Source of the DNA: an uncultured Desulfobacterales bacterium
GTDB lineage: Bacteria > Desulfobacterota > Desulfobacteria > Desulfobacterales > SpSt-501
Reading direction: 5' to 3'
DNA: 64,000 bases
NCBI GenBank assembly: GCA_938048455.1
Contig: CALIUY010000016.1
Location: forward strand, 14,796-78,795
Below the pieces are notes generated by a model. The model was not told where the DNA came from, did no database searches, and saw only the letters and a list, made by a program, of their open reading frames with translations. A program made the translations under genes and the position numbers. Shown one piece after another: positions 6,199-28,049 of this stretch (the stretch's first letter is position 1; each line of letters begins with the position of its first letter).

Positions 6199-7353
6199 TC
6201 AAGGATTCCCTGGCTCCCTCTGCTCCTCGCCGACCGGGGGGCGGCAGAGCGGCTGCGGGGTCCCCTGTCCCGCGCGGGTGAAGACGATCTGCCAGAGTTG
6301 AATCGCCCGCGCCCGGAAAGCCCCGGCGCAGGAAAGGAGGTAGTAGTCCCACATCCGCTTGAAACGCGCACCGTATTTCGGCTGCAGCTCCGGCCAGGCT
6401 TCCTCGAAGCGACGCTGCCAAGCCGTCAGCGTCCGATCGTAGTGAGGCCCCAGGTTGTGGACATCCTCGACGACGAAAAGACCCTCGGCAGCGCGCGAGA
6501 TCTGCGCCAGCGAGGGCAGCATGCCGTTCGGAAAGATATAGCGCGTGATCCAAGGATCGCAGCCCCGACGCGATTCGTTCGCTCCGATGCTCTGGAGCAG
6601 GAAGACGCCGTCCGCGGCGAGGAGGGAGGCGACTTTTTGCATGAAGCGGCGGTAGTTTTGGGAACCGACGTGCTCGAACATGCCCACGGAGACGATCTTG
6701 TCGTAGACACCGTCGATCTCACGGTAATCGGCTTCGACCGCCTCGATCGGAAGTCCGCGGCAAAACTCCCGGACATGGGCGAGCTGACCGCGGGAGAGGT
6801 TGACGGCCGTAACGCGGCAACCCCTGCGTTCGGCCGCATAACGGGCGAAGCCCCCCCAGCCGCAGCCGATGTCCAGCAGACGGTCGGTGGCTTTCAGCCC
6901 GATCTTGCGGCAGATGAGCTCCAGCTTCCGTCTCTGGGCCTGCTCCAAATCGTCGCCGTCGCCGAAGAACGCGCAGCTGTACTGGTTGTAGGAATCGAGA
7001 AAAGAAAGAAAGAGATCGTTTCCCAACTCGTAGTGATGGTCGACGACGCGTCGGGCCCGGGCGCGCGACTGGAGATTGAGCACGAGCGCGGGCAGGGATC
7101 GCAGGAGAAGGCCGAAGCCTCCGCGCACGCGGCCCTCGATCCCGCTCCGCAGGAGGTGATCGAAGAACTCGTCCAGCCGCGGGCAGTCCCACCAGCCGTC
7201 CATGTAAGATTCGCCGAGACCGAGATTCTTCTCGGCGATCACCCGGCCGTAGAAGCGCGGGTCGTGGACCTCGAGATCCCAGGGTCGCCCCCCGCCTATC
7301 GTCACCCCGGCCGCGGCGAGAAGCGCGGTGACCAGCCGCTCATCATGGCGCAT
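6199..7353 (-). CDS. cfa: Cyclopropane-fatty-acyl-phospholipid synthase
   Basis: CMAS-family pattern: HYELGNDLFLSFLD, SAM-binding LLDIGCGWGGFARYAA, YDKIVSVGMFEHVG, C-terminal WDYYLLSCAGAFRAR. Confidence 0.9.
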   Translation of the reverse strand: MRHDERLVTALLAAAGVTIGGGRPWDLEVHDPRFYGRVIAEKNLGLGESYMDGWWDCPRLDEFFDHLLRSGIEGRVRGGFGLLLRSLPALVLNLQSRARARRVVDHHYELGNDLFLSFLDSYNQYSCAFFGDGDDLEQAQRRKLELICRKIGLKATDRLLDIGCGWGGFARYAAERRGCRVTAVNLSRGQLAHVREFCRGLPIEAVEADYREIDGVYDKIVSVGMFEHVGSQNYRRFMQKVASLLAADGVFLLQSIGANESRRGCDPWITRYIFPNGMLPSLAQISRAAEGLFVVEDVHNLGPHYDRTLTAWQRRFEEAWPELQPKYGARFKRMWDYYLLSCAGAFRARAIQLWQIVFTRAGQGTPQPLCRPPVGEEQREPGNP

Positions 7354-7493
7354 CGCCGTTTACCCCACACCGGTGTCGCCCACCCGAAGAGCCTCCGATG
7401 CAACCGGGCGAAGATTGTTCACCCCGGATTCCGAAGCCGCCGATCTCCTCGTTGATATCCTCATTCGGCTCAGGCGAAGCGGTTCGCGCTTGG

Positions 7494-7584
7494 GGAGGCC
7501 TCGCAGCGCTCCTCGAACGGCGCTCTCCCCGCCAAGGGGCCGGCGCCGGGACGAGCGACTTTCTCCGGACAGCGCGAGGCCTCC
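7494..7584. repeat. 11-bp inverted repeat GGAGGCCTCGC / GCGAGGCCTCC separated by 69 nt
   Basis: Arms at 7494-7504 and 7574-7584, in the spacer between the SelW-like stop and the cfa start. Confidence 0.5.
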
Positions 7585-7606
7585 TCCGTGGAGCTTCGCC
7601 GCCCGT

Positions 7607-7909
7607 TTAGGCCATGGGGAAAAACCCCCGCTTCTCCAGCTTCCTTCCGGGAAGGAGCCGGGCGTGAGGAAGGATCTTCAGCAGAACCTCTTCGTCCATC
7701 GGCAGCCGGCGGCATGACCCCTGGTTGCTGAAAATCACCTCGTCTTCGAGGCTCACCTCGAAGATCCCGTTGTGTCCGTCCACGAGTTCGGCCCGGAGAC
7801 CGAAGAAGGCTTCGATGGCTGCAGCCAGACTGACCGCACGTTCACGAAAGCCTCACTCCAAGCAGTAGACAATGCGGATGCGGGGCTTACCGCCCGTCTG
7901 CGATTCCAT
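7607..7909 (-). CDS. SelW/SelT/SelH (Rdx) family selenoprotein, CxxU
   Basis: Missed by the ORF track because of an in-frame TGA at 7853-7855 (codon 19). ATG 7909 has AAGGAG 8 nt upstream; TAA is at 7607-7609. Translation: MESQTGGKPRIRIVYCLE-U-GFRERAVSLAAAIEAFFGLRAELVDGHNGIFEVSLEDEVIFSNQGSCRRLPMDEEVLLKILPHARLLPGRKLEKRGFFPMA. This fits the Rdx pattern I.YCxx(C/U)..RA...L....G..G.FEV...ifS....R.P...E. Confidence 0.8.
7808..7852 (-). promoter_or_regulatory. Candidate bacterial SECIS element of the SelW-like gene
   Basis: Immediately after the UGA: lower stem GGCUUUCG/CGAAGCC, enclosing the upper hairpin GCGGUC-AGUCU-GGCUGC (7821-7837, GU in the loop). Confidence 0.45.
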
Positions 7910-7943
7910 AGGTCGTTCTCCTTTCCGAAGAAGATTTTGGATT

Positions 7944-8237
7944 TCAGGCGAAAATCCGCCGCAGGGCCTCTTCCAACGGGCCCCATTCGTTTTCGAGCAC
8001 CTCGATGCCGCGGGCCCTGAGCCATTCCCTGTGAAAGCTCCAGATCCCGTTACATACCACTTTGCGCACTCCCCGTTCCACGAGAAACCGACAGACCTCC
8101 CAGGGGTCCTCGGCGTGCAGCTCCTGGAATTTCGGGCTCCGATCGCCCTTCAGCCCCTCGAGGAACAACACCTCGTCGCAAAACCCGAAGCAGGGGGCGA
8201 TCCGCTTGTTCAAGAGGATCACGGCGATCCGATCCAC
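7944..8237 (-). CDS. NifX/NifB-C-terminal-like (dinitrogenase FeMo-cofactor-binding fold) protein
   Basis: DRIAVILLNKRIAPCFGFCDEVLFLEG...VRKVVCNGIWSFHREWLRARGIEVL resembles the NifX-like family. The maximal ORF is 7944..8345. I prefer GTG 8237 (alternative ATG 8276) because a -24/-12 promoter lies at 8293-8307, inside the long ORF. Confidence 0.65.
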   Translation of the reverse strand: MDRIAVILLNKRIAPCFGFCDEVLFLEGLKGDRSPKFQELHAEDPWEVCRFLVERGVRKVVCNGIWSFHREWLRARGIEVLENEWGPLEEALRRIFA

Positions 8238-8292
8238 TTCCACCTCGCCTTGCCGGTTTCCCCGGGAGCGTCCCATCGCGTCCGCAGGGACA

Positions 8293-8307
8293 GCAAAAAC
8301 GATGCCT
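8293..8307 (-). promoter_or_regulatory. Sigma54 (-24/-12) promoter for the NifX-like/SelW-like operon
   Basis: Reverse strand AGGCATCGTTTTTGC: GG and GC with the canonical 10-nt spacing. Confidence 0.6.
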
Positions 8308-8440
8308 GGGTGTTCATCGCTTCTTGGATCTGCCGAGGTTTCCACACCCCAACGTCAGCCCGCCCGGCCTGGGAAGCCTCCCCCCGCGAAGCCCGCTAAG
8401 CCCCTCGGGCAAGATCTTGTCGAAAAAGGATGCCATGCTT

Positions 8441-8461
8441 ATGTTTCACCCGTTGAAACAT
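8441..8461. promoter_or_regulatory. Palindrome ATGTTTCA-N5-TGAAACAT, candidate activator-binding site (UAS)
   Basis: Perfect 8-bp arms. Centred about 150 nt from both divergent -24/-12 promoters (8293-8307 and 8596-8610). Confidence 0.55.
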
Positions 8462-8595
8462 CTCGACCGCTTTTCACCCCTCTCCGGCAGACAAACCGGC
8501 ACGCAGGCGCCCGATCGACGTGTAGTTCGGCCGGCGGCGGGCACGGTGACGCTTTCCCGGGGGGCTGATTCGCTCGCCGAATTGCCGATCCCGCC

Positions 8596-8610
8596 CGGCA
8601 TAAGCTTTGC
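8596..8610 (+). promoter_or_regulatory. Sigma54 (-24/-12) promoter for the radical SAM gene
   Basis: CGGCATAAGCTTTGC with canonical GG-N10-GC spacing, 53 nt before ATG 8663. Confidence 0.6.
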
Positions 8611-8662
8611 TTGACTCCTGTCGCAGGACGCCGCGTGTCCCTAGCGAAAAGGAGGTTCAGGA

Positions 8663-9817
8663 ATGGCGACGCAAACCTCGGCCGACGTCCCACGGACCCC
8701 CTTTTTTGTCCGCAAAGCCCCTGTCCCGACAATCGGAGACACCCCGCTTAGGCGGACGAGCCGATTCCGTCGCGCCTGCCGCAGTTGGCTTTTCCCCTAC
8801 TTGCGGTCGCGTCTGGCGGCCGACGGGTTCCACCCCGTACTGTCCTTTTTCTACACCGACCTCAATTGCAACCTGAATTGCAGCTACTGTTACAGCCGGG
8901 GGAAAAACATCCCCGGGATGAGCTGGGAAACGGCTTGCGCCGCCGTGGAGTGGCTCGAGCGACAGGGCTGCCGGGTGCTCGCCTACATGGGGGGAGAGCC
9001 CCTGGTGCGCAAGTCCTTCATCGTCGAGCTCACACGCCTGGCGGCGGACAAGGGCTTCTTCGTCTATCTGCCGACCAACGGCATCCTCATGGACCGCGAC
9101 TTCATCGACGCGATCGGTGAAGCCGGAATCGCCGCCGTGAACCTCGCCGTCGACGCCATGGACGGCTATGCGGGGATTCCCAAGAACCTGAAACGCATCC
9201 TGCCGCAGTTCGAATACCTCGTCGAGCAGGAAAAACGCTACGGCTACCACACCTTTCTCAACATCAACATCACCGGCAAGAACGTCGAAGACGTGATGGC
9301 GCTGACGGAAACGGCTCATCGCTATGGGATCGCGACCGATTACCACATCAGCGAGCCGCCGCCGATCGAATACGAGGGCTTCGATCCCTCCCGAACCGAT
9401 GTCTGGATCCACGAATCGCAGATCGCCGCCGTCGACGAGCTGATCGACTGGCTGATCGCCAAAAACCGTGCCGGCTACACCATGGTCAACTCGATCGCCC
9501 ACCTGCAGGCGATGAAACGCTTCATCCGCCGCGAACTTCCTCCCTGGCCTTGCCAGGCGGGGCGGATCTCCATGGTCATCCGGCTGGACGGGAGCTTCGC
9601 CCCCTGTTTCGAGTATTACGCGAGCCAGGAGGACTGGGGCGACTTCCTTCGGGGACCGCGATTCGACGGCGAGCGGCTCGCGCGCCTCAAGGCGCGCTGC
9701 AGCCCGGGGTGCCTCTCGACCTGCAACTTCCAGGTCAGTCACTATTCGCAGTCCTGGCTGCGCTCGCTCCAGTGGGTGGCCAAACACGCCTACTCGCAGT
9801 GGTTCGGGGTCTCCTGA
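8663..9817 (+). CDS. Radical SAM protein with Cys-rich (SPASM/twitch-like) C-terminus
   Basis: CNLNCSYC (CxxxCxxC) after an N-terminal basic segment; C-terminal CQAG..APCFEYY..CSPGCLSTC. AAGGAGG lies upstream of the ATG. Confidence 0.85.
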   Translation: MATQTSADVPRTPFFVRKAPVPTIGDTPLRRTSRFRRACRSWLFPYLRSRLAADGFHPVLSFFYTDLNCNLNCSYCYSRGKNIPGMSWETACAAVEWLERQGCRVLAYMGGEPLVRKSFIVELTRLAADKGFFVYLPTNGILMDRDFIDAIGEAGIAAVNLAVDAMDGYAGIPKNLKRILPQFEYLVEQEKRYGYHTFLNINITGKNVEDVMALTETAHRYGIATDYHISEPPPIEYEGFDPSRTDVWIHESQIAAVDELIDWLIAKNRAGYTMVNSIAHLQAMKRFIRRELPPWPCQAGRISMVIRLDGSFAPCFEYYASQEDWGDFLRGPRFDGERLARLKARCSPGCLSTCNFQVSHYSQSWLRSLQWVAKHAYSQWFGVS

Positions 9818-9842
9818 GCGATTCTCTCTCCCGCGCCGCGTT

Positions 9843-10763
9843 TTATGCGCCGTCCGCGGGGGGAGCCGCACAGCTCCCCCCGCGGACGAGAAGTACCGGT
9901 TTGTCGCTGTATTCGGCAACGTTGCGCGAAACCGAACCCCAGAGAATCCCCTTCACCCGTCCCTTGCCGTGGGTGCCCATGAAGACGAGGGTGACGTCTT
10001 CCCCGCGGGCAAGCTGAAGCAGGGCCGCACGCGGATTGCCCACGGCAAGCCGCGTGCGCACGGCAAACCCTTCGGATCGCAAGCGCTGCTCCGTTTCTTC
10101 CAGCCGGCGGCGGTCGATTCGTTCGAATTCCCGGAATTTCTCCTCCGGCTGCAAGGACATGGCCTTTTCCTCCATGACATGGACCACCACGATCTCCCCG
10201 ATCCCGGAGCCCTTCAAGCGGCAAAGCGCCTCCAGGGCCGCGCGCGAGCACTCCGACCAATCGACGGGAAACAGGACGCGGCGGAAGGGATCCCGACAGG
10301 CGGCGCCCTCCGGGGATACCCGGCCGCCGTAAACTTCGGGGCACTTGGGGATGTAGACGGGAAAGCTGCCGTAGCGGACGAGGCGGTCGGTGGTCGAGCC
10401 GAAGAGAATTTCATCGAACCCGCTGCGGCGCTCGCGCCCGCTGACGATCAGGGAAACGTTCTCTTCATCGGCCACCTGGAGAATCCGGCGCCAGGGAACT
10501 CCGATCTCGATCCGGACCTTCGCCCGCAGTCCCTGCGCCTCGGCGATGCGGACCGCCTCATCCATCCGCGAGGAGAGCTCCGCCGCCAGGGAATCGAGCA
10601 TCTGCCGGGCGTGTCGCCCCTTCACGGGAAAATGCTCATCGGCTTGGATCACATGCACCAAAACGATCTCTTCGGTTCCGACACGCCGCAGGTTGGTGAC
10701 ACAGCCGAAGACCTCCCGGTAATAGGCCTCCAGGGCCGTGGCATAGAGAATCCTGCGGAACAT
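9843..10763 (-). CDS. Tandem universal stress protein (UspA-domain x2)
   Basis: Two Usp-like repeats (ILYATAL..LVHV and VLFPVDWSE..VVHV..GTHGKGRVKGILWGSVS). AAGGAGGGG lies upstream of ATG 10763. Confidence 0.85.
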   Translation of the reverse strand: MFRRILYATALEAYYREVFGCVTNLRRVGTEEIVLVHVIQADEHFPVKGRHARQMLDSLAAELSSRMDEAVRIAEAQGLRAKVRIEIGVPWRRILQVADEENVSLIVSGRERRSGFDEILFGSTTDRLVRYGSFPVYIPKCPEVYGGRVSPEGAACRDPFRRVLFPVDWSECSRAALEALCRLKGSGIGEIVVVHVMEEKAMSLQPEEKFREFERIDRRRLEETEQRLRSEGFAVRTRLAVGNPRAALLQLARGEDVTLVFMGTHGKGRVKGILWGSVSRNVAEYSDKPVLLVRGGSCAAPPADGA

Positions 10764-10809
10764 ATCCCCTCCTTCTTGTCAGCGCAAGGCCGCCTGTGAC
10801 TCGCCAGGA

Positions 10810-10824
10810 GCAACTCCGGTGCCA
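10810..10824 (-). promoter_or_regulatory. Sigma54 (-24/-12) promoter for the usp gene
   Basis: Reverse strand TGGCACCGGAGTTGC (consensus TGGCAC-N5-TTGC), 47 nt before ATG 10763. Confidence 0.7.
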
Positions 10825-10921
10825 GCCGCGCAGCTCTTCCCGGCCTGCGCTCCGAAATGCGGCCGGGCGCCGCCGAAAAGGCTAGGAGCCTCAAAAAGCT
10901 CGCCGAGCGTTTCGGCTGCGG

Positions 10922-10940
10922 ATGTTTCAAGCCCTGAAAC
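10922..10940. promoter_or_regulatory. Palindrome ATGTTTCA-N5-TGAAAC, second copy of the candidate UAS
   Basis: Same half-sites and spacing as 8441-8461. Lies between the divergent -24/-12 promoters at 10810 and 11087. A further TGTTTCC...TGAAACA pair follows at 10941-10972. Confidence 0.55.
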
Positions 10941-11086
10941 TGTTTCCGCGGTCAGCACCCCCTGATGAAACAAGGTCGTGCTTTCCCCCTTTCCCAGGGG
11001 AGAGCCCGAACCGATCGCCTCGCCGGAGTCCGCGGCGCACGCCCCGCGACTCGAACCCGAGTCCAGATCCCTTTCGGGAAAAACTC

Positions 11087-11101
11087 TGGCACAGGTGTTG
11101 C
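11087..11101 (+). promoter_or_regulatory. Sigma54 (-24/-12) promoter for the TauE-family gene
   Basis: TGGCACAGGTGTTGC, 48 nt before ATG 11149. Confidence 0.75.
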
Positions 11102-11148
11102 TCTCTTCGGCAATGATCGTGCTTTTTCGAGCCAAAGGAGGAAGACCC

Positions 11149-12060
11149 ATGAACAGCAGCCGAGATTCCACGTGGCGCAACTACCTCCCTTCGGGCATAC
11201 TGCTGGCGATCCTGATCGTCCTTACCGCCTGGTCCTTTGCCATCGGCATCGCCGCACGCGGAGGTCCTCCGGTCGATGCCGGCCGAGGGCTCGCTCTGGT
11301 CATCATCGGATTGGCCGCGGGCTTCTTGGGGGGCATCATCGGCACCGGCGGCTGCAGCGTGATGCTTCCCGCCATTCATTTCTGGATGGGCTATTCCACG
11401 CCGGTCGCCGTCGGCACGACCCTCTTTGCGGTCATTTTCACGGCGATCTCCGGCGGCTACGGGCACCTCGTCCGACGCAATCTGGACGTGAGCGCCACCC
11501 TTTGGCTGGGCGGAGCGGGGATCGTGGGCGTGTTGATCGGCTCCTGGCTTTTCACCCTGCTCAGCCGCCAGATCGCTCTTTTGGGATTGATCCTCGGACT
11601 GGCTTTTCTCTGGCCGGCTGGCCGCATGATCTGGGAAGGACTCCGCAAGGGGACGCATCCCGCTGCGGAAGGAAACCGCATCCCGCGCCACACCGGCGGC
11701 TGGATCGCGTTCGGATTCCTGATCGGCATTTTCACCGGCATCGTCGGGCTGGGAGGCGGCTACGCCCTGGTACCGGGGCTGATCTATCTTTTCGGCGCTC
11801 CGGTCTATGTCACCATGGGGACTTCGCTCGCCACGATGATCCCGCTGGCCGTTGTGGGCGGCGGGATCAAGCTGATCCAGGGCTACGTCGCCATTGGAGC
11901 CGGGCTGCTTCTGGCCGCGGGGACGGTCGTCGGCGCCCAGATCGGGGCGGCGGTGATCAAGAAGTTCAAGCCGGCGACCCTGAAGCTGATCTTCGGCGTT
12001 TACTTTCTCTACGTCGCCGTGAAGTTCGTGCTGGCCTATTTCGGCATTCAGATCTTCTGA
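11149..12060 (+). CDS. TauE/SafE (DUF81) family anion exporter
   Basis: ORF 10978..12060 trimmed to ATG 11149 (AAAGGAGG upstream). Duplicated G-rich TM motifs (GFLGGIIGTGG and GIVGLGGG). Confidence 0.85.
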   Translation: MNSSRDSTWRNYLPSGILLAILIVLTAWSFAIGIAARGGPPVDAGRGLALVIIGLAAGFLGGIIGTGGCSVMLPAIHFWMGYSTPVAVGTTLFAVIFTAISGGYGHLVRRNLDVSATLWLGGAGIVGVLIGSWLFTLLSRQIALLGLILGLAFLWPAGRMIWEGLRKGTHPAAEGNRIPRHTGGWIAFGFLIGIFTGIVGLGGGYALVPGLIYLFGAPVYVTMGTSLATMIPLAVVGGGIKLIQGYVAIGAGLLLAAGTVVGAQIGAAVIKKFKPATLKLIFGVYFLYVAVKFVLAYFGIQIF

Positions 12061-12128
12061 GGATTCTCCCGCTCCTTGGCTCAGGGACGACCCGCAGGAC
12101 GCCAGGGAATGCAGCCGCGGGCGCGAAT

Positions 12129-12374
12129 TCAATTTTTCGAAAAGAACAGGCGCCGGATCAACAGAAAACACAGACCGATGACCACCACCCAGAAAAGAAG
12201 GTTCAGCAGCGGATGGGGGAAATAGGGGAACCCGAAAAAATTCGGCGGGCAAGACCAGGAGTTCCAGGGCGGAAACCCCCGGCCCCACGGTCCCGCAAGG
12301 GCCGTCGAGGCGCGTGAAAGACCGAAAAACGAGGTCATCCAAAAACCGGATCGGCTAAAGCGGAAAGGCTTCAT
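12129..12374 (-). CDS. Hypothetical small membrane protein
   Basis: 81-aa ORF with a Gly/Pro/aromatic N-terminal part (GPWGRGFPPWNSW) and one C-terminal TM helix. Lies downstream of the TPR gene on the same strand. No family recognised. Confidence 0.3.
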   Translation of the reverse strand: MKPFRFSRSGFWMTSFFGLSRASTALAGPWGRGFPPWNSWSCPPNFFGFPYFPHPLLNLLFWVVVIGLCFLLIRRLFFSKN

Positions 12375-12439
12375 TTTCGCAAGACCTTTCGCCGGGAAGG
12401 AAGGCCGCTTGGCTGCCGCGGCTTATCCTGGAGTGACAC

Positions 12440-13072
12440 TCAGTCCCGTTCCGCCGCATCGCTCCCGTCAATCCGCCGTAAGGATCCCACGACGGCCGGG
12501 GGGACGTCCTGCCCCGAGCGAGCGCCGTCGGGCGCGGTCGCGTTGAAGCGGCGGGTCTGTCTCCAGGCCCGAATGGCCGCGTCGAGGTCCTGAAACGCAT
12601 CCAGCAGGATCAGGCCTTTGTAGAGATGGGCGTCCTCATGTTGCGGATGGAGGGCGATGGCCCGGTCCAAAGCCTCCAGCGCCTTCTCGGGCTTGCCGTC
12701 CTTCAGGTAGTGGATCCCCAGTTCCGTCCAGATTTCGGAGCGACGGGGGTCCAGCGCCAGGAAATTCTCGTAGGCTTCCGCAGCCTCCGCGGTCAGGCCG
12801 GATTCGCTGTAGGCACGGGCAAGCGCAAGCCAGGCGCCGGAATGGCCCGGATTTCTGGCCACGGCACGTTCGAGAAGCAGAATCTGCGGAACCGGAAAAG
12901 ATCGAACCATCGCGAAAAGCCGGCTTTCGCCGAAAATCCATTGATCGAGCACCCACGCCGATCCCAGGCTTCCGAAAAAGGCCGCGGCGCCCAAGAGGGC
13001 GAGGATCTTGCGCGAGGCCGTTTTTCCCCTGCGCTCAATCGCGACGGAAGCCCCGTGTCTTGCCGAGATCAT
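12440..13072 (-). CDS. Membrane-anchored TPR-repeat protein
   Basis: N-terminal TM segment followed by TPR-like repeats (AWLALARAYSESGLTAEAAEAYENFLALDP, IWTELGIHYLKDGKPEKALEALDRAIALHP). Confidence 0.7.
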   Translation of the reverse strand: MISARHGASVAIERRGKTASRKILALLGAAAFFGSLGSAWVLDQWIFGESRLFAMVRSFPVPQILLLERAVARNPGHSGAWLALARAYSESGLTAEAAEAYENFLALDPRRSEIWTELGIHYLKDGKPEKALEALDRAIALHPQHEDAHLYKGLILLDAFQDLDAAIRAWRQTRRFNATAPDGARSGQDVPPAVVGSLRRIDGSDAAERD

Positions 13073-13216: not shown

Positions 13217-13588
13217 CTACTTTTTCTCCTGATCCGCGAGCACCTTGAGCATCTCCGCCCTCAGGTTGCTCGACTCCTGCTGGAGCTCATCGATCAGATC
13301 AAAGATCTCCTTCTGCAACGCCGCCACTTTGGCCTGATCCGGGTTCGGGGTGAGCATCAAGGTTCTCAGCTCCATCTTCTTGCTGAAGAGCTGTTGCTGA
13401 AGGGGAACGGTTTTTTCCTGGTGTGCCTGCTGGAGCGCCAGAATCCGGGTGGACTGCTCCGGGGTGAGGTTCTGAACCATCGGCCCCATGCCGTAGAACC
13501 TGCCGCCCCAGGGCCCTGCGAAAGCTGCGGAAGCCACCAGTGTCAACGCCAGGGTGAGACTCAGTGCGGTCAAGGCTTTCTTTTTCAT
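13217..13588 (-). CDS. ZraP/CpxP/Spy-family periplasmic protein (paralogue 1)
   Basis: Trimmed to ATG 13588 (GGGAGG upstream). Signal peptide MKKKALTALSLTLALTLVASAAFA, Gly-rich GPWGGRFYGMGP, LTPEQ (LTxxQ) motif. Confidence 0.8.
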   Translation of the reverse strand: MKKKALTALSLTLALTLVASAAFAGPWGGRFYGMGPMVQNLTPEQSTRILALQQAHQEKTVPLQQQLFSKKMELRTLMLTPNPDQAKVAALQKEIFDLIDELQQESSNLRAEMLKVLADQEKK

Positions 13589-13634
13589 TTTTTCCTCCCT
13601 TTCCTGAATCGTGGGATTCCACGTCCTTATTTGT

Positions 13635-14093
13635 CTACCATCGGCCATACATGCGGCCGCCCTTGCCGAATCCGCCGCCGTAGCCCAAGCCGGGCATCAG
13701 GGCGAGCTGCTCCGGAGTCAGCAGTTTCCGGACCGCCAGCTGATGCTGCGTAGCCTTCTCGCGCAGCTTCGCCTCGAGCTCCAGGACCTCACGCTGCTTG
13801 GCATTGATCTTGCCCGCATCCGGATTGGGCTGGGACCACAGAAGCCGCATTTCCGTCCGTTTGCTGAAGAGCTGGCTCTGCAGCGGAGCGATTTCCTCAT
13901 AGTAAGATCGCCTCAGGTCCTGGATTTTCTGCGCCTGCTCGGGGGTGAGGTTGGGGGCCCCGGCATAAGGCACGCCATAGCCCGGGCCCATGCCGCCGCG
14001 CCCCCATCCGCCCATTCCGCCCGGGCCGGCGACAGCCCACGAAGCGACCAGAACCAGCGCCGCTGCGATAATAAGCGTGTGTGTTCTTTTCAT
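13635..14093 (-). CDS. ZraP/CpxP/Spy-family periplasmic protein (paralogue 2)
   Basis: Trimmed to ATG 14093 (AAGGAGG upstream). Signal peptide, Gly-rich N-terminus, two LTPEQ motifs, Gly-rich C-terminus ending GRMYGRW, similar in style to the E. coli ZraP tail as I recall it. Confidence 0.8.
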   Translation of the reverse strand: MKRTHTLIIAAALVLVASWAVAGPGGMGGWGRGGMGPGYGVPYAGAPNLTPEQAQKIQDLRRSYYEEIAPLQSQLFSKRTEMRLLWSQPNPDAGKINAKQREVLELEAKLREKATQHQLAVRKLLTPEQLALMPGLGYGGGFGKGGRMYGRW

Positions 14094-14134
14094 TGCGATC
14101 ATCCTCCTTTCGCTGGGGTTCTGCCGCTCTTCTT

Positions 14135-14150
14135 TGCAGGTCACATGCCA
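14135..14150 (-). promoter_or_regulatory. Sigma54 (-24/-12) promoter for ZraP-like paralogues 2 and 1
   Basis: Reverse strand TGGCATGTGACCTGCA, about 40 nt before ATG 14093. Confidence 0.75.
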
Positions 14151-14300
14151 GAAGCGCTACAAAAGAAAGGATGATCTATAACGCATTGAAATATATTGTA
14201 TAATTATCTACTGCGGGAGTTGGCGGCGGGATCGGGATGGCGGAAAAAAATGTCGAGGATTTTAGCGCGGCTGAAGCCACGGTCGATCGATAAGTCTATT

Positions 14301-14311
14301 GTTTCAAGACA
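14301..14311. repeat. 11-mer GTTTCAAGACA (copy 1)
   Basis: Identical AT-rich 11-mer also at 15025-15035. This copy lies about 150 nt upstream of the 14135-14150 promoter. Confidence 0.5.
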
Positions 14312-14406
14312 TTATTTATTTCCTGGGGCTCGACAGAAAAAGAAGCGCGCGGGACTTGTGAACGTCGAATGACGAAAGAGAAGAGGAAAAGCGAAGCCGT
14401 TATCAG

Positions 14407-14425
14407 AACCCAGTACTTTTGGGTT
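14407..14425 (-). terminator. Weak hairpin after ZraP-like paralogue 3
   Basis: RNA AACCCA-AAAGUAC-UGGGUU followed by a pyrimidine/U-rich stretch. The stem is short, so this is tentative. Confidence 0.3.
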
Positions 14426-14436
14426 GCCGGAGGAAA

Positions 14437-14934
14437 CTACCACCTGCCGCCGTGCATACGGCCCCTGCGGCCGGCCCCCAGGCCGTATTCCGATCCCGAG
14501 CCCATGCCATAGCCCCCCTGCGATAGGCGCTCGCGCTGCTCGGGGGTCAGCAGGGATTGGATTTCGAACCGCTGCCGAGTCGTCATTTCCCGCAGACGAA
14601 GGTCCAGCTCGGCCAGTTCGCGCTGCTTGGCGAGGATTTTCTCCTGATCCGGATTGGGATGCGCCCAGAGAGCGCGCAGTTCGGACCGCTTGGCGAGCCG
14701 CTGGTTTTGCAGCGGGGCCGCTTCAGCCCGGTGTTTTCGGCGAAGCTCTTCGATCTTTCGCATCTGCTCGGGGCTCAGGTCCGGGATTTCGGCATAACGC
14801 CCGCCGTAGCCGGAGCCCGCGCCCGGCCCGCGTCCCATGCCGCCTCCGCCCCAGATCCCTTCGGGCTCTGCGAGGGCGATAGAGGTGGTGATCGCCAGCA
14901 CCCCCAACACGATCGCTGTTTGTTTGTGCCGCAT
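14437..14934 (-). CDS. ZraP/CpxP/Spy-family periplasmic protein (paralogue 3)
   Basis: Signal peptide, Gly-rich N-terminus, LSPEQ and LTPEQ motifs, Gly-rich tail ending GRMHGGRW. Confidence 0.8.
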   Translation of the reverse strand: MRHKQTAIVLGVLAITTSIALAEPEGIWGGGGMGRGPGAGSGYGGRYAEIPDLSPEQMRKIEELRRKHRAEAAPLQNQRLAKRSELRALWAHPNPDQEKILAKQRELAELDLRLREMTTRQRFEIQSLLTPEQRERLSQGGYGMGSGSEYGLGAGRRGRMHGGRW

Positions 14935-14979
14935 GGAAAGAATCCTCCGTTCTCGATACCAGGGGTCAAGGCATGGCGG

Positions 14980-14995
14980 GCGGCCCGCGTGCCGG
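14980..14995 (-). promoter_or_regulatory. Possible sigma54 promoter for ZraP-like paralogue 3 (weak -12)
   Basis: Reverse strand CCGGCACGCGGGCCGC. The GG-N10-GC spacing is correct, but the -12 reads CCGC instead of TTGC. Confidence 0.3.
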
Positions 14996-15024
14996 AAATT
15001 ACGACCTGCTGAGCGGTTGGGAAG

Positions 15025-15035
15025 GTTTCAAGACA
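15025..15035. repeat. 11-mer GTTTCAAGACA (copy 2)
   Basis: Lies in the divergent region between ZraP-like paralogue 3 and the kinase gene. Confidence 0.5.
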
Positions 15036-15182
15036 GACAAGATAGATTAGATCGACAAAAAACAGCAAGTTCAAAAAGCGCCGGATTTTCCGCCCGCGGC
15101 GATTTTGCCGATCCGAGAAAACCCGGCACGCCTTCTTGCCCGCAATCGGGAAAGAGAGTAGGTTGAACTCAGGGAGTCATCC

Positions 15183-16928: not shown

Positions 16929-16942
16929 GGAGGGGCTCATCC

Positions 16943-18304
16943 ATGCAGGCGCTCGATATCCTGATCGCCGAAGACGAGCGCGTCCAGCGCGAAATGCTGC
17001 GCGATTTCCTCGCCGGCCAGGGCCATCGGGTCGTGGAGGCCGAGAACGGGGCCGTCGCTCTGGAAAAAATCAAGGCCGCGACCTTCGATCTCGCGATTTT
17101 GGATTACCGCATGCCCGACCGGACCGGCCTCGAGGTCCTCGAGGAGGCCCGTCGGCTCAACCCCGAGCTCGACGTGATTCTCCTGACCGCTTACGGCACC
17201 GTGGACAGCGCGGTGGCGGCCATGAAGGCGGGAGCGGCCGACTATCTCGGAAAGCCGCTCGACTTGGAGGAACTGCTGTGCGTGATCGAGCGCATCGCCC
17301 GCCACCGCACCCTGCAACGCGAAAACGAACGGCTCCGCGAACAGCTTGCCGAAACGGGTCTGAAACCCGAAGATCTCGTCTTCCGCAGCTCCCCGATGGC
17401 CGAACTCGTCAACCTCGCCGGCCGCGTCGCCGCCAGTCAAGCCACCGTTCTCCTGCGGGGGGAGAGCGGAACGGGAAAGGAGCTCTTCGCGCGCCTGATC
17501 CATCGCCTGAGCCCGCGCGCCGCCAAACCGCTCCTCATCGTGAACTGCGCCGCGCTCAGCGAAACCCTGATCGAAAGCGAGCTCTTCGGCCACGAGCGCG
17601 GCGCTTTCACCGGCGCCACCCAGCGCCGGATCGGCCGCTTCGAGCAGGCCGACGGCGGAACCCTCTTTCTCGACGAGATCGGGGACGTCTCCCCCGCCGT
17701 CCAGGTCAAGCTGCTGCGCCTGATCCAGGAGGGGGAATTCCAGCGCGTCGGCGGAAACCAGACGCTCCGGGCCGATGTGCGCCTGATCAGCGCGACTCAC
17801 CAGGATCTCGAGTCCAAAATCGCCTCCGGCGCCTTTCGGGAAGACCTCTACTATCGCTTGAACGTCGTTTCGCTGTCCATTCCGCCGCTCCGCGAGCGCC
17901 GCGCCGACATCCCGCCGCTTGTCGACCATTTCGTCACCCGCTTCGCCCGCGAAAACCGCAAGGCCCTAAAGGGGGTGAGCCGGGAAGCGATGGACCAGCT
18001 CGTCAAGTACGACTACCCGGGCAACGTGCGCGAGCTCGAAAACATCATCGAGCGGGCCGTCGTTCTCGCCCGCGGGGAGCTCATCACCACGGAGGAGCTG
18101 CCCTTCGGTCGTCGGCAGGCCGGCGAGGAATCTGCAGCCGTGCGGCAAAGCCTGCGTCAGGCTTTGGAACATCTCGAACGGCGCATGATCGCCGAGGCCT
18201 TGGAAGAAGCCGGCGGAAACCAGAGCCGCGCCGCGCAGCGGTTGGGTTTGAGCGAGCGGATGCTGCGCTACAAGCTGAAAAAGTACCGCCTCAAGCCGGC
18301 TTGA
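16943..18304 (+). CDS. Sigma54-dependent response regulator (NtrC/ZraR-like)
   Basis: Receiver (DLAILDYRMPDRTG), AAA+ (GESGTGKE, GAFTGA, FLDEIGD), Fis-type HTH (NQSRAAQRLGLSERMLRYKLKKY). Confidence 0.9.
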   Translation: MQALDILIAEDERVQREMLRDFLAGQGHRVVEAENGAVALEKIKAATFDLAILDYRMPDRTGLEVLEEARRLNPELDVILLTAYGTVDSAVAAMKAGAADYLGKPLDLEELLCVIERIARHRTLQRENERLREQLAETGLKPEDLVFRSSPMAELVNLAGRVAASQATVLLRGESGTGKELFARLIHRLSPRAAKPLLIVNCAALSETLIESELFGHERGAFTGATQRRIGRFEQADGGTLFLDEIGDVSPAVQVKLLRLIQEGEFQRVGGNQTLRADVRLISATHQDLESKIASGAFREDLYYRLNVVSLSIPPLRERRADIPPLVDHFVTRFARENRKALKGVSREAMDQLVKYDYPGNVRELENIIERAVVLARGELITTEELPFGRRQAGEESAAVRQSLRQALEHLERRMIAEALEEAGGNQSRAAQRLGLSERMLRYKLKKYRLKPA

Positions 18305-19679
18305 CCGGCGGGCTTTTGGGTTTCTCCCCGTTGGGAGAAAAGGGGGAGGAGAGGCCGTATTTGCGCATGCGTCGCCAGAGCGTCGTGCGGCTGATTCCGA
18401 GGGCGCGCGCCGCGGCGAGACGATTGCCCCGCAAGCCGGCAAGCACGGTACGGATCTTCTCGGCCTGAGCCGCGGTCTCCGGCGGCGGGCAACAGCGGCT
18501 TTCCGAGACCTCTTCCCGGATTTCCTGCGGCAGGTGTTCCGGCCGGATCAGCTTTTCGCGGCAAGTGACGAAAGCGTACTCGATGATGTTTTCGAGCTCG
18601 CGGATATTTCCGGGGAACGGATAGTCGAGAAGAAGATTCAACACCTCCGGGGCCACTCCCTGGATCTCCCGGCCCTTGATCATGTTGAACCGGCGCACAA
18701 CGTGGTCAACCAACAGGGGAATGTCCTCCCGGCGCTCGCGCAGCGGCGGGAGGCTCACCTTGACGACGTTCAGGCGGTAATAGAGATCTTCCCGGAACCG
18801 CCCCTCGCGCACCTGGGCCTTCAGGTCCAGGTTGGAGGCCGTCACCAGCCGAAAGTCGGATCGCCGCGGCCGGTTCGACCCGAGCGGGGTGAACACTCCG
18901 TCTTCGAGCACACGCAGCAGGTCGGCCTGGAACGCCGTCGAGGTGCTGCCGATTTCATCCAGAAACAGGGTTCCGCGGTCAGCGGCCAGGATCCGGCCGG
19001 ACTTGTCGCGCACGGCCCCCGTAAAGGCGCCCTTGGCGTAGCCGAAGAGCTCGGATTCAAGGAGCGTATCCGGCAGAGCGGCGCAGTTTACGGCGATGAA
19101 CGGGCCGTCGCTGCGCCGGCTGAGGCCGTGGATCGCCCGGGCGATCAGCTCCTTTCCCGAACCGGTCGGTCCCTCGATCAAAACCGCACTGTCGCTCACC
19201 GCGATGTCCGGCAAAAGAGCGAGCAGGGCGCGGATCCGCGGGTGGCGGCCGACAATGTCCTCCGGGGTATAACGCCGATCGATGTGGCGGCGAAGCTGCT
19301 CGATCTCGGTCAAGTCGCGCAGCGTCTCGACGGCCCCCAGGATCCGGCCGTTTTCGTCTTTCAGCGGGGCCACATTGAGGCGCACCATGACCCGTCCGCC
19401 GCCTTTGGCGATCAGGACGACGCGCTGATCGGCGGGGGGGCATTCGCCCTGCAGGCAGTCATCGAGGGGACAGCGGCGGGCGCACAGATCGGCCCGCAGG
19501 ACGTCGAAGCATTTGCGCCCCACGGCCTCGGCGGACGAAAAACCGGTGATCCGCTCGGCGGCGGGATTGAGGTAGGTGACCCGCTTTTGCGCGTCGATCG
19601 TGATCACGCCCTCGCTCACGCTCTCGACGATCGTGCAGCAGTGGGTGGGCGACAGGGTCAGGATGCGGAAACGCGCCAA
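18291..19679 (-). CDS. Sigma54-dependent activator with PAS domain and Cys cluster
   Basis: PAS (VSEGVITIDAQKRVTYLNPAAERITG), Cys cluster CFDVLRADLCARRCPLDDCLQGEC, AAA+ (GPTGSGKE, GAFTGA), C-terminal HTH (NRLAAARALGISRTTLWRRMRKYG). Confidence 0.9.
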   Translation of the reverse strand: MARFRILTLSPTHCCTIVESVSEGVITIDAQKRVTYLNPAAERITGFSSAEAVGRKCFDVLRADLCARRCPLDDCLQGECPPADQRVVLIAKGGGRVMVRLNVAPLKDENGRILGAVETLRDLTEIEQLRRHIDRRYTPEDIVGRHPRIRALLALLPDIAVSDSAVLIEGPTGSGKELIARAIHGLSRRSDGPFIAVNCAALPDTLLESELFGYAKGAFTGAVRDKSGRILAADRGTLFLDEIGSTSTAFQADLLRVLEDGVFTPLGSNRPRRSDFRLVTASNLDLKAQVREGRFREDLYYRLNVVKVSLPPLRERREDIPLLVDHVVRRFNMIKGREIQGVAPEVLNLLLDYPFPGNIRELENIIEYAFVTCREKLIRPEHLPQEIREEVSESRCCPPPETAAQAEKIRTVLAGLRGNRLAAARALGISRTTLWRRMRKYGLSSPFSPNGEKPKSPPVKPA

Positions 19680-21027: not shown

Positions 21028-21051
21028 GGGATCGGCTCAATCTCGGGCAAC

Positions 21052-21831
21052 TCATTTCGTCTTGCCGCTTTTGGCGCCGGCAGGCGCCGCGGGGAGGCCG
21101 AGCCTGCGCCGCAGTTCGGCCTCCTCGAGAAGCCCGGAGTGATAGCGCGCATCCGGGAAAATGTAGGTCGGCGTTCCGCTCACCCCTTTGCGGGAGAGAA
21201 GCTCGCGGGTTTCCTCGACCACGCCCTCGCCTTCGGCGCACTGGTTTTCGGAGAGATAGCCGTTGTGGAAATCATCCAGGGATTTCTTGTCGCAAATCAC
21301 GGCGATCGACTGCGGCCGCGAATCCTTGTAGGAGTCCAGGGGGAAAAAGAGGATCCGCGCCGTGATCTCTCCTTGAGCGGCAAGCTTCTTCAGCGTCTCC
21401 TCCCCTTTTTTGCAATAGGGGCAGTGCGGGTCGGTGGCGTAATAGAGGGTCTTCGGGCCGTCCCCCAGACGGATCACGGTGAGCGCCTCGAGCCGCTTCA
21501 TCTCTTCGGCCGTGAAGAGGTTCACCTGCTCGATCTTTTCGCGTGTCAGATTGCGGCCGGTTTTCGCCTCATAGAGCTGACCCATGAGGAGATATTCGCC
21601 CGACGGGCCGGTGTAGAAAATGTGGACCCGCTGATTCAGGCGCACCTGGATTTCGCAGAGGTTCTCAAACTCCGTCGGCTGAAGCGCAACCAGGCTCCGG
21701 TCCGGGGCCTCGAAGCGCGAGATCACCTGCTGGATCTTCTCGCGCGGCGGGCACTGCGCGTCGACCTTTCCCGCAAAAAGCGCAATCAAAGCGATCGTCC
21801 CGGCCACCGCAAAGGCTTGGCTTCGTTTCAC
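21052..21831 (-). CDS. DsbC/DsbG-like periplasmic thiol:disulfide isomerase
   Basis: Signal peptide, N-terminal dimerisation-like domain, thioredoxin fold with CPYC. Confidence 0.8.
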   Translation of the reverse strand: MKRSQAFAVAGTIALIALFAGKVDAQCPPREKIQQVISRFEAPDRSLVALQPTEFENLCEIQVRLNQRVHIFYTGPSGEYLLMGQLYEAKTGRNLTREKIEQVNLFTAEEMKRLEALTVIRLGDGPKTLYYATDPHCPYCKKGEETLKKLAAQGEITARILFFPLDSYKDSRPQSIAVICDKKSLDDFHNGYLSENQCAEGEGVVEETRELLSRKGVSGTPTYIFPDARYHSGLLEEAELRRRLGLPAAPAGAKSGKTK

Positions 21832-21888
21832 GGCCGTTCTCCTTTCTTCGACCCCATCGTCGGCTGCACCCTCTCTTCCGCGCCCGAC

Positions 21889-22428: not shown

Positions 22429-22462
22429 AGAAACCACTTCTTTTCCTTTCCGGTTTCTGAAT

Positions 22463-22987: not shown

Positions 22988-23073
22988 ACGACCTCCTCCC
23001 GGCGAACACGCCGCTTCGCCGGCCTGGCTTTTCAGGGATGCGCGGGGCCGTAGCCGACCTCGAAGACAGGCAT

Positions 23074-23268: not shown

Positions 23269-23271
23269 TTG

Positions 23272-25408: not shown

Positions 25409-25445
25409 GGACAGGTTTTCCCGACACCCGGGCGGCGGCAAAAAA

Positions 25446-26162: not shown

Positions 26163-26172
26163 GACACTCTCC

Positions 26173-27868: not shown

Positions 27869-27978
27869 CGATGTCTCCTCCGGAAAGAAATTCGTTCAGG
27901 GTCGCGCAACCGAACCGTCATTCCGGACGGGGTCCGCGATCCTGAGGGATCGGGAACTGCGGACACGAGTGGATCCCT

Positions 27979-28030: not shown

Positions 28031-28049
28031 AGCGGTTTTCGCTTCCGGC

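What the first reader, a model, noticed from the sequence alone, without database searches (positions are those of the whole stretch)
8293..11101. Two pairs of divergent sigma54 promoters share the palindrome ATGTTTCA-N5-TGAAAC: a small regulon of redox/stress genes with no activator gene adjacent
Intergenic region 8238-8662 contains AGGCAT-N5-TTGC (reverse; NifX-like/SelW-like operon) and CGGCAT-N5-TTGC (forward; radical SAM gene). The perfect palindrome ATGTTTCACCCGTTGAAACAT (8441-8461) sits almost exactly midway, about 150 nt from each.

Intergenic region 10764-11148 contains TGGCAC-N5-TTGC on both strands (usp and the TauE-family exporter). ATGTTTCAAGCCCTGAAAC (10922-10940) lies between them.

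All four promoters have the invariant GG-N10-GC spacing. A shared 7-8-bp half-site with the same 5-nt spacer in the only two such regions is unlikely to be chance, and it fits one bacterial enhancer-binding protein firing both directions. The nearest candidates are the ZraR-like regulator (16943-18304) and the PAS/Cys activator (18291-19679).
Basis: seen in the sequence. Interest (0 to 1): 0.65.

Follow-up and report, generated by a model that had tools for sequence, protein, structure and literature searches.

The report
Enhancer sites for a redox-sensing sigma54 activator
Two short palindromes, each between a pair of back-to-back sigma54 promoters, are most likely the docking sites of one activator encoded 7-10 kb away, a relative of the iron-sulfur redox sensor OrpR; this is a sound but ordinary regulon prediction for an unstudied branch of a known regulator class.

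Summary
TGTTTCA-N5-TGAAACA occurs twice in 64 kb (8442-8460 exact; 10923-10941 with one mismatch), against none in 100 shuffles. Each copy lies between two outward-facing -24/-12 promoters with correct GG-N10-GC spacing.

The interpretation also holds and can be sharpened. The activator is most likely the PAS/Cys enhancer-binding protein at 18291-19679(-), not the ZraR-like regulator.
- In six distant genomes, homologues of this protein (60-64% identity) sit directly upstream of a NifX-like gene, often followed by TauE, Usp or radical-SAM genes. The gap between holds a sigma54 promoter and, about 100 bp upstream of it, a cluster of GTTTCA/TGAAAC hexamers.
- A close relative (L005) lacks this activator gene, three of the four target units, and both the palindrome and the promoter upstream of the surviving radical-SAM gene. 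It keeps the ZraR-like gene.
- The recognition helix (GISRTTLWRR) matches PrpR, whose published enhancer is CGTTTCATGAAACG.
- The PAS domain carries C-x-D-x6-C-x3-C, the spacing of the [4Fe-4S] cysteines of Desulfovibrio OrpR.

Redox sensing and DNA binding are inferred. No transcript data exist. This is a new member of a known kind, of moderate interest.

The parts
8441..8461 (.). UAS 1: perfect palindrome ATGTTTCA-CCCGT-TGAAACAT, the proposed binding site of the PAS/Cys activator
   Evidence: Read. Unique in the window. Half-sites are conserved and the spacer is free in L004, L006, L008 and L011. Lost in L005 together with the activator gene.
8292..8307 (-). Sigma54-type promoter AGGCATcgtttTTGCT for the NifX-like / SelW-like (and probably cfa, SBF-like, patatin) operon
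   Evidence: 13.1 bits. The equivalent GGGTATCGTTTTTGCT is kept in L004. L025 has the same operon behind a sigma54 promoter.
8596..8611 (+). Sigma54-type promoter CGGCATaagctTTGCT for the radical SAM gene
   Evidence: 14.4 bits. Conserved as TGGCAT-N5-TTGCT in L004, L006, L008 and L011. Absent in L005.
10922..10972 (.). UAS 2: ATGTTTCA-AGCCC-TGAAAC, followed by possible extra half-sites GTTTCC (10942-10947) and TGAAACA (10966-10972)
   Evidence: The core is conserved in L006 and has 1 mismatch in L004. The extra half-sites are poorly conserved.
10809..10824 (-). Sigma54-type promoter TGGCACcggagTTGCT for the tandem-Usp gene
   Evidence: 16.3 bits. Near-invariant in L004 and L006 while the flanks diverge.
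11087..11102 (+). Sigma54-type promoter TGGCACaggtgTTGCT for the TauE-family gene
   Evidence: 18.2 bits. Conserved in L004 and L006.
7944..8237 (-). NifX-like (Nitro_FeMo-Co family) small protein, 97 aa, GTG start
   Evidence: Pfam PF02579, E=1.6e-5, just below the curated cut-off. Aligns end to end with the Nitro_FeMo-Co genes next to the activator in L030-L032, which fixes the start at 8237.
7607..7909 (-). Rdx/SelW-like selenoprotein gene (100 aa) with an in-frame TGA at 7853-7855 in a C-L-E-U motif; not called by the public gene caller
   Evidence: Read. Pfam Rdx, E=3.3e-10, with U read as C. Hairpin directly after the UGA. Orthologue follows the NifX-like gene in L025.
8663..9817 (+). 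Radical SAM protein, 384 aa
   Evidence: Pfam PF04055. No NCBIfam equivalog reached.
9843..10763 (-). Tandem universal stress protein, 306 aa
   Evidence: Pfam Usp, two stretches.
11149..12060 (+). TauE/SafE-family membrane protein, 303 aa
   Evidence: Pfam PF01925, E=5e-43.
18291..19679 (-). Proposed cognate activator: PAS-AAA+(GAFTGA)-HTH_8 enhancer-binding protein with C57-x-D59-x6-C66-x3-C70 and recognition helix GISRTTLWRR. It is the last gene of a thiol/disulfide and metal gene cluster.
   Evidence: Pfam. Sequence. Family conservation of the Cys motif and the helix. Genomic linkage. Absent in L005.

Best explanation
The two palindromes are upstream activating sequences (enhancers) for one sigma54-dependent activator, the PAS/Cys protein encoded at 18291-19679(-).

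Proposed mechanism:
- Dimers of its Fis-type helix-turn-helix bind the inverted GTTTCA/TGAAAC half-sites.
- The AAA+ ring then loops to sigma54-RNA polymerase held at the -24/-12 promoters about 105-155 bp away on either side. One site therefore fires two divergent units.
- Region 1 serves the NifX-like / SelW-like (plus cfa and downstream) operon and the radical SAM gene. Region 2 serves usp and tauE.
- By analogy with OrpR, the PAS domain holds a [4Fe-4S] cluster on three cysteines and gates the ATPase by redox state, so the regulon would be on at low redox potential and off when the cell is oxidised.

Shown here: the sites, their conservation, their statistical link to sigma54 promoters, and their genomic link to this protein family.
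Inferred: binding, looping, cluster binding, and the direction of the redox response.
For: 1. The sites are unique and non-random. Half-sites and -24/-12 boxes are conserved in L004 and L006 while the spacer (CCCGT, CCATA, GCACT) and flanks change.

2. L005 (radical SAM protein 90% identical) lacks the activator gene, with both flanking genes intact. It also lacks the NifX-like and SelW-like genes, and usp and tauE. Upstream of the surviving radical SAM gene, both the palindrome and the promoter are gone. The ZraR-like gene is kept.

3. Homologues of the activator at 60-64% identity (L030, L031, L032, L034, L035, L036) are each followed by a Nitro_FeMo-Co gene. Further downstream, depending on the locus, lie TauE (four loci), Usp (two) and radical SAM/SPASM (two); L035 also has CMAS. 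The gap holds a sigma54 promoter and, about 100 bp upstream of it, TGAAAC-N6-TGAAAC-N1-GTTTCA-N5-TGAAAC or a close variant. L025 (70%) has divergent sigma54 promoters around two such palindromes, driving the same NifX-like / SelW-like operon.

4. In 317 kb of such loci there are 10 exact GTTTCA-N5-TGAAAC against 0.009 expected. Nine have an outward sigma54 promoter at 104-157 bp.

5. A pattern-only scan of metagenomes for palindrome plus promoter returned radical SAM orthologues and other plausible UAS/promoter/gene sets.

6. The recognition helix GISRTTLWRR matches E. coli PrpR (GISRTTFWRR), whose intergenic region carries five GTTTCA/TGAAAC hexamers upstream of TGGCAC-N5-TTGCT. The Salmonella PrpR enhancer is given as CGTTTCATGAAACG (PMC4987338). 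A PrpR_N-type activator in L015 sits beside six such hexamers.

7. The Cys pattern C-x-D-x6-C-x3-C equals OrpR C52, D/E54, C61 and C65 (PMC8359166). It is present in all 120 listed homologues.

8. The other three activators in the window each have their own sigma54 promoter nearby: 14150(-), about 2.8 kb from the ZraR-like gene; 34376(+); and 53233(+). Their DNA-binding helices differ. The PAS/Cys protein is the only one left without a nearby promoter.
Against: - There are no transcript or binding data. Only DNA runs hold this sequence.
- Three activator loci (L023/24, L027/28, L029) show no site within 10 kb. In L028 a close TauE orthologue runs off the end of the locus, so its upstream region was not seen.
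- PrpR-family activators use the same hexamer, so an unseen activator elsewhere in the genome could bind instead.
- The window group, L004 and L006 are close relatives, so they are not independent counts.
- No IHF consensus lies between the sites and the promoters.
- The OrpR analogy rests on a motif. OrpR itself binds a different sequence (GGGCGYRTTTTGCGCCC), which is absent here.
Confidence: 0.75

Rival explanations
1. The palindromes are enhancers, but for another activator with a PrpR-type recognition helix encoded outside the 64-kb window (for example a PrpR_N-domain protein), not for the PAS/Cys protein.
For: PrpR-family proteins use the same hexamer. L015 shows a PrpR_N activator beside six GTTTCA/TGAAAC hexamers and a sigma54 promoter. 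Only 64 kb of a contig of at least 240 kb was visible. Three PAS/Cys activator loci have no site within 10 kb.
Against: The same target gene types (NifX-like, TauE, Usp, radical SAM) lie directly next to PAS/Cys activators, with the hexamer cluster in the gap, in six distant lineages. L005 lost this activator together with the sites.
Confidence: 0.12
2. The ZraR-like response regulator (16943-18304) is the activator that binds the palindromes.
For: It is the nearest activator gene, and ZraR-type systems are known to serve divergent sigma54 promoters (my knowledge of E. coli zraP-zraSR). A lone GTTTCAAGACA occurs upstream of two ZraP-like genes.
Against: L005 keeps this gene (89% identical) but has no palindrome. 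L030-L036 have the sites without such a gene. L023 and L027/28 have the gene and no palindrome. Its helix (LGLSERMLRYKLKKY) differs from the PrpR type. It has a natural target in the ZraP-like gene behind the sigma54 promoter at 14150(-). GTTTCAAGACA is not found in any relative.
Confidence: 0.04
3. The palindromes are operators for a non-sigma54 regulator (an ArsR, Rrf2 or CRP/FNR type), or conserved by chance, and the -24/-12 matches are not the working promoters.
For: There is no experimental start site. A conserved block next to UAS 1 (CTTGTCGAAAAA...CATGCTTA, 8416-8441) survives even in L005 and reads as a weak TTGTCG-N17-TATGTT sigma70-like element.
Against: The sigma70 scan finds nothing at its threshold in 7300-12700. 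The sites lie 105-155 bp from conserved -24/-12 boxes, too far for an operator acting on them. Nine of 10 sites across loci pair with outward sigma54 promoters. The promoter boxes are islands of conservation.
Confidence: 0.05

Closest known systems
OrpR (DVU2106) and the orp operons of Desulfovibrio vulgaris Hildenborough
   Same: Single-component PAS-AAA+-HTH activator. The Cys spacing in the PAS domain is identical (C-x-[D/E]-x6-C-x3-C). It controls divergent sigma54 operons that include small proteins with the dinitrogenase FeMo-cofactor (Nitro_FeMo-Co) domain. It occurs in anaerobic sulfate-reducer lineages (PMC8359166, PMC3897727, PMC6345978).
   Different: OrpR binds GGGCGYRTTTTGCGCCC, with one site per operon, and carries GAFTDA. 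Here the site is GTTTCA-N5-TGAAAC, one shared site serves each promoter pair, and the motif is GAFTGA. The target genes differ: there are no Mrp or MinD-like ATPases, but SelW-like, radical SAM, Usp and TauE genes.
PrpR and the prpBCDE enhancer of Salmonella and E. coli
   Same: The same hexamer half-site (GTTTCA/TGAAAC) and a near-identical recognition helix (GISRTT[F/L]WRR), upstream of a sigma54 promoter.
   Different: PrpR has a PrpR_N sensor domain that responds to 2-methylcitrate. Its half-sites abut (CGTTTCATGAAACG) or form direct-repeat arrays, and it serves one promoter. Here the sensor is a Cys-rich PAS domain and the half-sites are spaced by 5 nt.
ZraR with zraP-zraSR, and other shared enhancers between divergent sigma54 promoters
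   Same: One upstream site placed between two divergently transcribed sigma54 promoters (my knowledge of E. coli zraP/zraSR).
   Different: ZraR is a phosphorylated response regulator with a different site. A ZraPSR-like module is present in this window but appears to be a separate circuit.

Membership tests
sigma54-dependent (-24/-12) promoter | GG and GC dinucleotides exactly 10 nt apart within TGGCAC-N5-TTGCW | tested here: met
   All four match with correct spacing and score 13.1-18.2 bits on a consensus matrix that I approximated from memory of the Barrios et al. consensus, not a published matrix.
sigma54-dependent (-24/-12) promoter | Position a short distance upstream of a gene start, conserved in relatives | tested here: met
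   The -12 box lies about 45-55 nt from each start codon. The boxes are conserved in L004 and L006 amid diverged flanks.
sigma54-dependent (-24/-12) promoter | Transcript start about 12 nt downstream of the GC, and rpoN dependence | not testable with these tools
   Only DNA runs hold the sequence.
bacterial enhancer (UAS) of an enhancer-binding protein | Inverted repeat about 80-200 bp upstream of a sigma54 promoter, recurring at several promoters | tested here: met
   The centres lie 108-155 bp from the first base of the 16-nt promoter match (just before the -24 GG). Nine of 10 sites across 14 loci pair with outward promoters.
bacterial enhancer (UAS) of an enhancer-binding protein | Bound by the activator's DNA-binding domain | not testable with these tools
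   Needs EMSA, DAP-seq or ChIP.
OrpR-type Fe-S PAS activators | PAS + sigma54-interaction AAA+ + Fis-type HTH architecture | tested here: met
   Pfam PAS_4/PAS_9, Sigma54_activat, AAA_lid_14 and HTH_8.
OrpR-type Fe-S PAS activators | Three conserved PAS cysteines (C52, C61, C65) plus an acidic residue at C52+2 | tested here: met
   C57, D59, C66 and C70 have the same spacing (against PMC8359166). Present in all 120 top homologues.
OrpR-type Fe-S PAS activators | Binds the 17-bp site GGGCGYRTTTTGCGCCC | tested here: not met
   No match above chance in the window. The sites here are GTTTCA-N5-TGAAAC.
OrpR-type Fe-S PAS activators | [4Fe-4S] cluster and redox-gated activity | not testable with these tools
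   Needs anaerobic purification and spectroscopy.
OrpR-type Fe-S PAS activators | Sequence orthology to DVU2106 | not tested
No NCBIfam equivalog was reached (best PrdR, 328 bits against a cut-off of 795).
PrpR family | N-terminal PrpR_N sensor domain | tested here: not met
   No PrpR_N hit in the window protein. The domain is present in the L015 activator.
PrpR family | Enhancer built of GTTTCA/TGAAAC half-sites, and an SRTT[F/L]WRR recognition helix | tested here: met
Rdx/SelW-like selenoproteins (the second gene of the region-1 operon) | Rdx fold with a CxxU redox motif and a hairpin after the UGA | tested here: met
   C-L-E-U with TGA at 7853-7855. Pfam Rdx, E=3.3e-10. Hairpin of -32.3 kcal/mol, z=-1.9.

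The most novel reading that the evidence does not exclude
The PAS/Cys activator and its GTTTCA-type enhancers define a widespread, uncharacterised regulon of Thermodesulfobacteriota: NifX-like carrier, SelW-like selenoprotein, TauE, Usp and radical SAM genes, embedded in thiol/disulfide, ArsR-permease-thioredoxin and XdhC/FmdE-type gene islands. It would respond to a signal other than plain redox potential, for example sulfide or polysulfide, selenium, or a Mo/W cofactor intermediate. In some lineages a second control layer may be added by a conserved, Rfam-unknown leader of about 110 nt upstream of the NifX-like gene.
Probability: 0.25. Interest if true: 0.6.

Novelty: new member of a known kind. 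Interest (0 to 1): 0.4.

Why it matters
It assigns a binding motif, a target set and a likely signal to a very large family of sigma54 activators that has no curated NCBIfam equivalog. More than 7,800 proteins scored E<=1e-60 to the window protein, and all 120 listed homologues keep both the Cys motif and the recognition helix. OrpR is so far the only activator of this class shown to use an Fe-S PAS sensor, and its reported regulon is just two operons. If confirmed, this result would show that the sensor design has been reused with a PrpR-like DNA specificity to control a different set of small redox and metal-handling genes. It also gives a clean test case for one enhancer serving two divergent promoters. 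The value is mainly for annotating sulfate-reducer genomes; it does not change any concept.

Tried and rejected
- **IHF sites.** No WATCAR-N4-TTR match with at most 1 mismatch between the sites and the promoters.
- **Sigma70 promoters.** None at the scanner's threshold in 7300-12700. A weak TTGTCG-N17-TATGTT next to UAS 1 is left as speculation.
- **OrpR box.** GGGCGYRTTTTGCGCCC does not occur above chance.
- **Transcript evidence.** Only DNA metagenome runs hold the sequence.
- **Rfam.** No family matched in the window or in six related loci.
- **Solved structures for the NifX-like protein.** Only a marginal hit to 1rdu (E=0.21), and no hit to an orange-protein structure, so it is not filed as ORP.
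- **GTTTCAAGACA upstream of two ZraP-like genes.** Considered as a link to the ZraR-like regulator. It occurs only in the source organism, so it was dropped.
- **Terminator, or mobile-element end.** Rejected because the stem is AT-rich and short with no T tract, and the sites lie between divergent starts, not convergent ends.
- **Low-GC metagenome hits L009, L013 and L016.** No gene follows the 'promoter', so they are treated as chance.
- **Leader-RNA covariance model.** It matched only its three training loci.
Full report
**1. What is in the sequence**

The window is 61-69% G+C over most of its length. It is part of a 240-kb metagenome contig, and its closest genome relatives are Desulfatibacillum/Desulfobacterales MAGs.

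ATGTTTCACCCGTTGAAACAT lies at 8441-8461 and ATGTTTCAAGCCCTGAAAC at 10922-10940. TGTTTCA-N5-TGAAACA with at most one mismatch occurs only at these two places, and never in 100 shuffles. The relaxed core GTTTCA-N4-6-TGAAAC with at most one mismatch gives the same two sites.

Four -24/-12 elements with correct GG-N10-GC spacing face outward from the two palindromes:
- 8292-8307(-)
- 8596-8611(+)
- 10809-10824(-)
- 11087-11102(+)

The palindrome centres lie 144 and 145 bp (region 1) and 108 and 155 bp (region 2) from the first base of the 16-nt promoter match, just before the -24 GG.

**2. Genes served**

Region 1, leftward:
- A 97-aa Nitro_FeMo-Co (NifX-like) protein, 7944-8237. The public gene call starts it at ATG 8276, which would leave no leader. 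Alignment with homologues fixes the start at GTG 8237, preceded by GAGGTGG.
- An uncalled Rdx/SelW-like selenoprotein gene, 7607-7909, with an in-frame TGA in C-L-E-U.
- Probably cfa (6199-7353; above the NCBIfam cut-off), an SBF-like gene and a patatin gene. L025 has the same gene order behind a sigma54 promoter.

Region 1, rightward: a radical SAM gene (8663-9817).

Region 2: a tandem Usp gene (9843-10763, minus strand) and a TauE-family gene (11149-12060).

**3. Close relatives and a natural experiment**

L006 and L004 (radical SAM protein 96% and 89% identical) keep the half-sites and the promoter boxes, while the spacer (CCCGT, GCACT, CCATA) and the flanks change. This is the footprint expected of a protein-binding site with a free spacer.

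L005 (90%) is informative:
- It lacks the NifX-like and SelW-like genes.
- It lacks usp, tauE and the TPR gene.
- Separately, it lacks the PAS/Cys activator gene. The ZraR-like gene is followed directly by the radical SAM/SPASM gene.
- Upstream of its surviving radical SAM gene, both the palindrome and the -24/-12 box are gone.

The ZraR-like regulator is retained at 89% identity. These are three separate differences that all fall on the proposed regulon and its proposed regulator.

**4. Scan by cis-element only**

A metagenome scan for TGTTTCA-N5-TGAAAC-N125-155-GGCAY-N5-TTGC returned 16 loci. In about ten of them a gene starts 40-90 nt after the promoter. They include two radical SAM orthologues. 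One locus (L015) has an activator gene immediately upstream of a cluster of six GTTTCA/TGAAAC hexamers. That activator has a PrpR_N domain. Three low-GC hits look like chance.

**5. The activator family**

The protein at 18291-19679(-) has PAS, AAA+ (GAFTGA) and HTH_8 domains. Its homologues are very numerous. All 120 listed carry a C-x-[D/E]-x6-C-x3-C motif in the PAS domain. The great majority, about 440-490 aa long, carry a C-terminal helix of the form ALG[MI]SR[TS]TLWRK.

I fetched the surroundings of ten of them.
- In L030, L031, L032, L034, L035 and L036 (60-64% identity) the activator gene is followed by a Nitro_FeMo-Co gene. Beyond it lie TauE in four loci, Usp in two and radical SAM/SPASM in two; L035 also has FmdE and CMAS.
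- The gap between them holds a sigma54 promoter. About 100 bp upstream of it is the array TGAAAC-N6-TGAAAC-N1-GTTTCA-N5-TGAAAC (L032, L034, L036) or a degenerate version (L030, L031, L035).
- L025 (70%) has two palindromes between divergent sigma54 promoters, 2.3 kb from the activator gene.
- L023/24, L027/28 and L029 show nothing within 10 kb. In L028 a TauE orthologue 88% identical to the window's runs off the end of the locus, so its upstream region was not seen.

Over all 14 loci (317 kb) there are 10 exact GTTTCA-N5-TGAAAC against 0.009 expected. Nine have an outward sigma54 promoter 104-157 bp away, while promoter-like hits occur at only 0.11 per kb. The window, L004 and L006 are not independent. 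About five to eight independent lineages remain.

**6. Why this protein should read GTTTCA**

Its helix-turn-helix reads LGISRTTLWRRMRKYGL. E. coli PrpR ends in LGISRTTFWRRLKS, and the prpR-prpB gap holds GTTTCA-N12-TGAAAC-N4-TGAAAC-N6-TGAAAC-N6-TGAAAC upstream of TGGCAC-N5-TTGCT. The Salmonella PrpR enhancer is listed as CGTTTCATGAAACG (PMC4987338).

The other three activators in the window have different DNA-binding ends:
- ZraR-like: LGLSERMLRYKLKKY
- sCache-GAF activator: LGISRSTLYEKIKRY
- The fourth activator: a winged-helix-like tail

Each of these three also has its own sigma54 promoter nearby:
- 14150(-), upstream of a ZraP-like gene, about 2.8 kb from the ZraR-like gene
- 34376(+), just downstream of the sCache-GAF activator
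- 53233(+), divergent from the fourth activator

The PAS/Cys protein is the only activator without a nearby promoter. The four palindrome-linked promoters are the only ones without a nearby activator.

**7. Likely signal**

OrpR of Desulfovibrio vulgaris is a PAS-AAA+-HTH activator. [quoted passage not shown] It is active at low redox potential, becomes constitutive when the PAS domain is deleted, and controls two divergent sigma54 operons that encode Nitro_FeMo-Co-domain proteins (PMC8359166, PMC6345978).

The window protein has C57, D59, C66 and C70, the same spacing. I therefore infer the same kind of gating. This is analogy, not evidence. OrpR's DNA site is different and is absent here, and I could not test orthology.

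**8. Rivals**

- An unseen PrpR-type activator elsewhere in the genome cannot be excluded (0.12).
- The ZraR-like regulator is unlikely (0.04).
- A non-sigma54 operator, or chance, is unlikely (0.05). The sites are too far from the conserved promoter boxes to act as operators, and no sigma70 match is found.

No IHF consensus was found. Looping may rely on intrinsic bending or on a diverged IHF site.

**9. Verdict**

This is a standard sigma54 enhancer arrangement assigned to an unstudied, very large branch of OrpR-like activators with PrpR-like DNA specificity. It is a new member of a known kind. Interest is moderate (0.4).

Noticed in passing
window 7607-7909 (-): An uncalled selenoprotein gene of the Rdx/SelW family, with TGA at 7853-7855 in a C-L-E-U motif and a hairpin directly after it. 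The public gene call leaves 7354-7943 empty. In L025 the caller placed a wrong-strand gene over the orthologue.
   Followed up: yes
L032 11545-11665, L034 9165-9282, L036 11548-11667: A conserved leader of about 110 nt lies between the sigma54 promoter and the NifX-like start codon. It includes a stem AGUCCU/AGGGCU, and a UCAAU...AUUGA pairing that would cover the ribosome-binding site. There is no Rfam match. A covariance model found it only in these three loci, and it is absent from the window. It may be a cis-regulatory RNA.
   Followed up: partly
window 8416-8441: The block CTTGTCGAAAAAGGATGCCATGCTTA, just left of UAS 1, is conserved in all relatives, including L005, which has lost the palindrome. 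It reads as a weak sigma70-like TTGTCG-N17-TATGTT that overlaps the site. Its function is unknown.
   Followed up: partly
window 13217-18304: A ZraPSR-like module: three LTXXQ/Metal_resist genes, a histidine kinase and a response-regulator activator, with a sigma54 promoter TGGCATgtgacCTGCA at 14150(-). It sits between the PAS/Cys activator and its proposed targets. GTTTCAAGACA occurs upstream of two of the LTXXQ genes (14301, 15025) but only in this organism.
   Followed up: partly
window 19762-30309 (-): The PAS/Cys activator is the last gene of a long minus-strand cluster: ArsP_1 permease, DGC-domain protein, thioredoxins, DsbD, cation-efflux protein, MauE-DUF1573, FeS (PF04060), rhodanese, DsbC-like protein and a radical SAM/SPASM maturase. 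The same gene set precedes the activator in L023, L025, L027 and L029.
   Followed up: partly
window 50660-53122 (-) and 53233 (+): A fourth activator, with GAFTEA instead of GAFTGA and a winged-helix-like C-terminus instead of HTH_8. It is divergent from a strong sigma54 promoter, TGGTACagggaTTGCT.
   Followed up: no
L004 12474-13383: The TauE orthologue is split over two reading frames, either a frameshift or an assembly error. The neighbouring palindrome has one mismatch (CGTTCCA).
   Followed up: no
L034 14380-14403: A second, identical copy of the half-site array (TGAAACcGTTTCAtgtttTGAAAC), with about 30 nt of flank, lies 80 bp upstream of a DUF3795 gene with no sigma54 promoter. It looks like a local duplication of the enhancer.
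   Followed up: no
L007, L012, L019 (soil metagenomes): The same palindrome (TGTTTCAaatagTGAAACA) lies 149 bp upstream of GGCAC-N5-TTGC and a His-rich LTXXQ/CpxP-like gene, in contigs unrelated to the window. The contigs are too short to show the activator.
   Followed up: no
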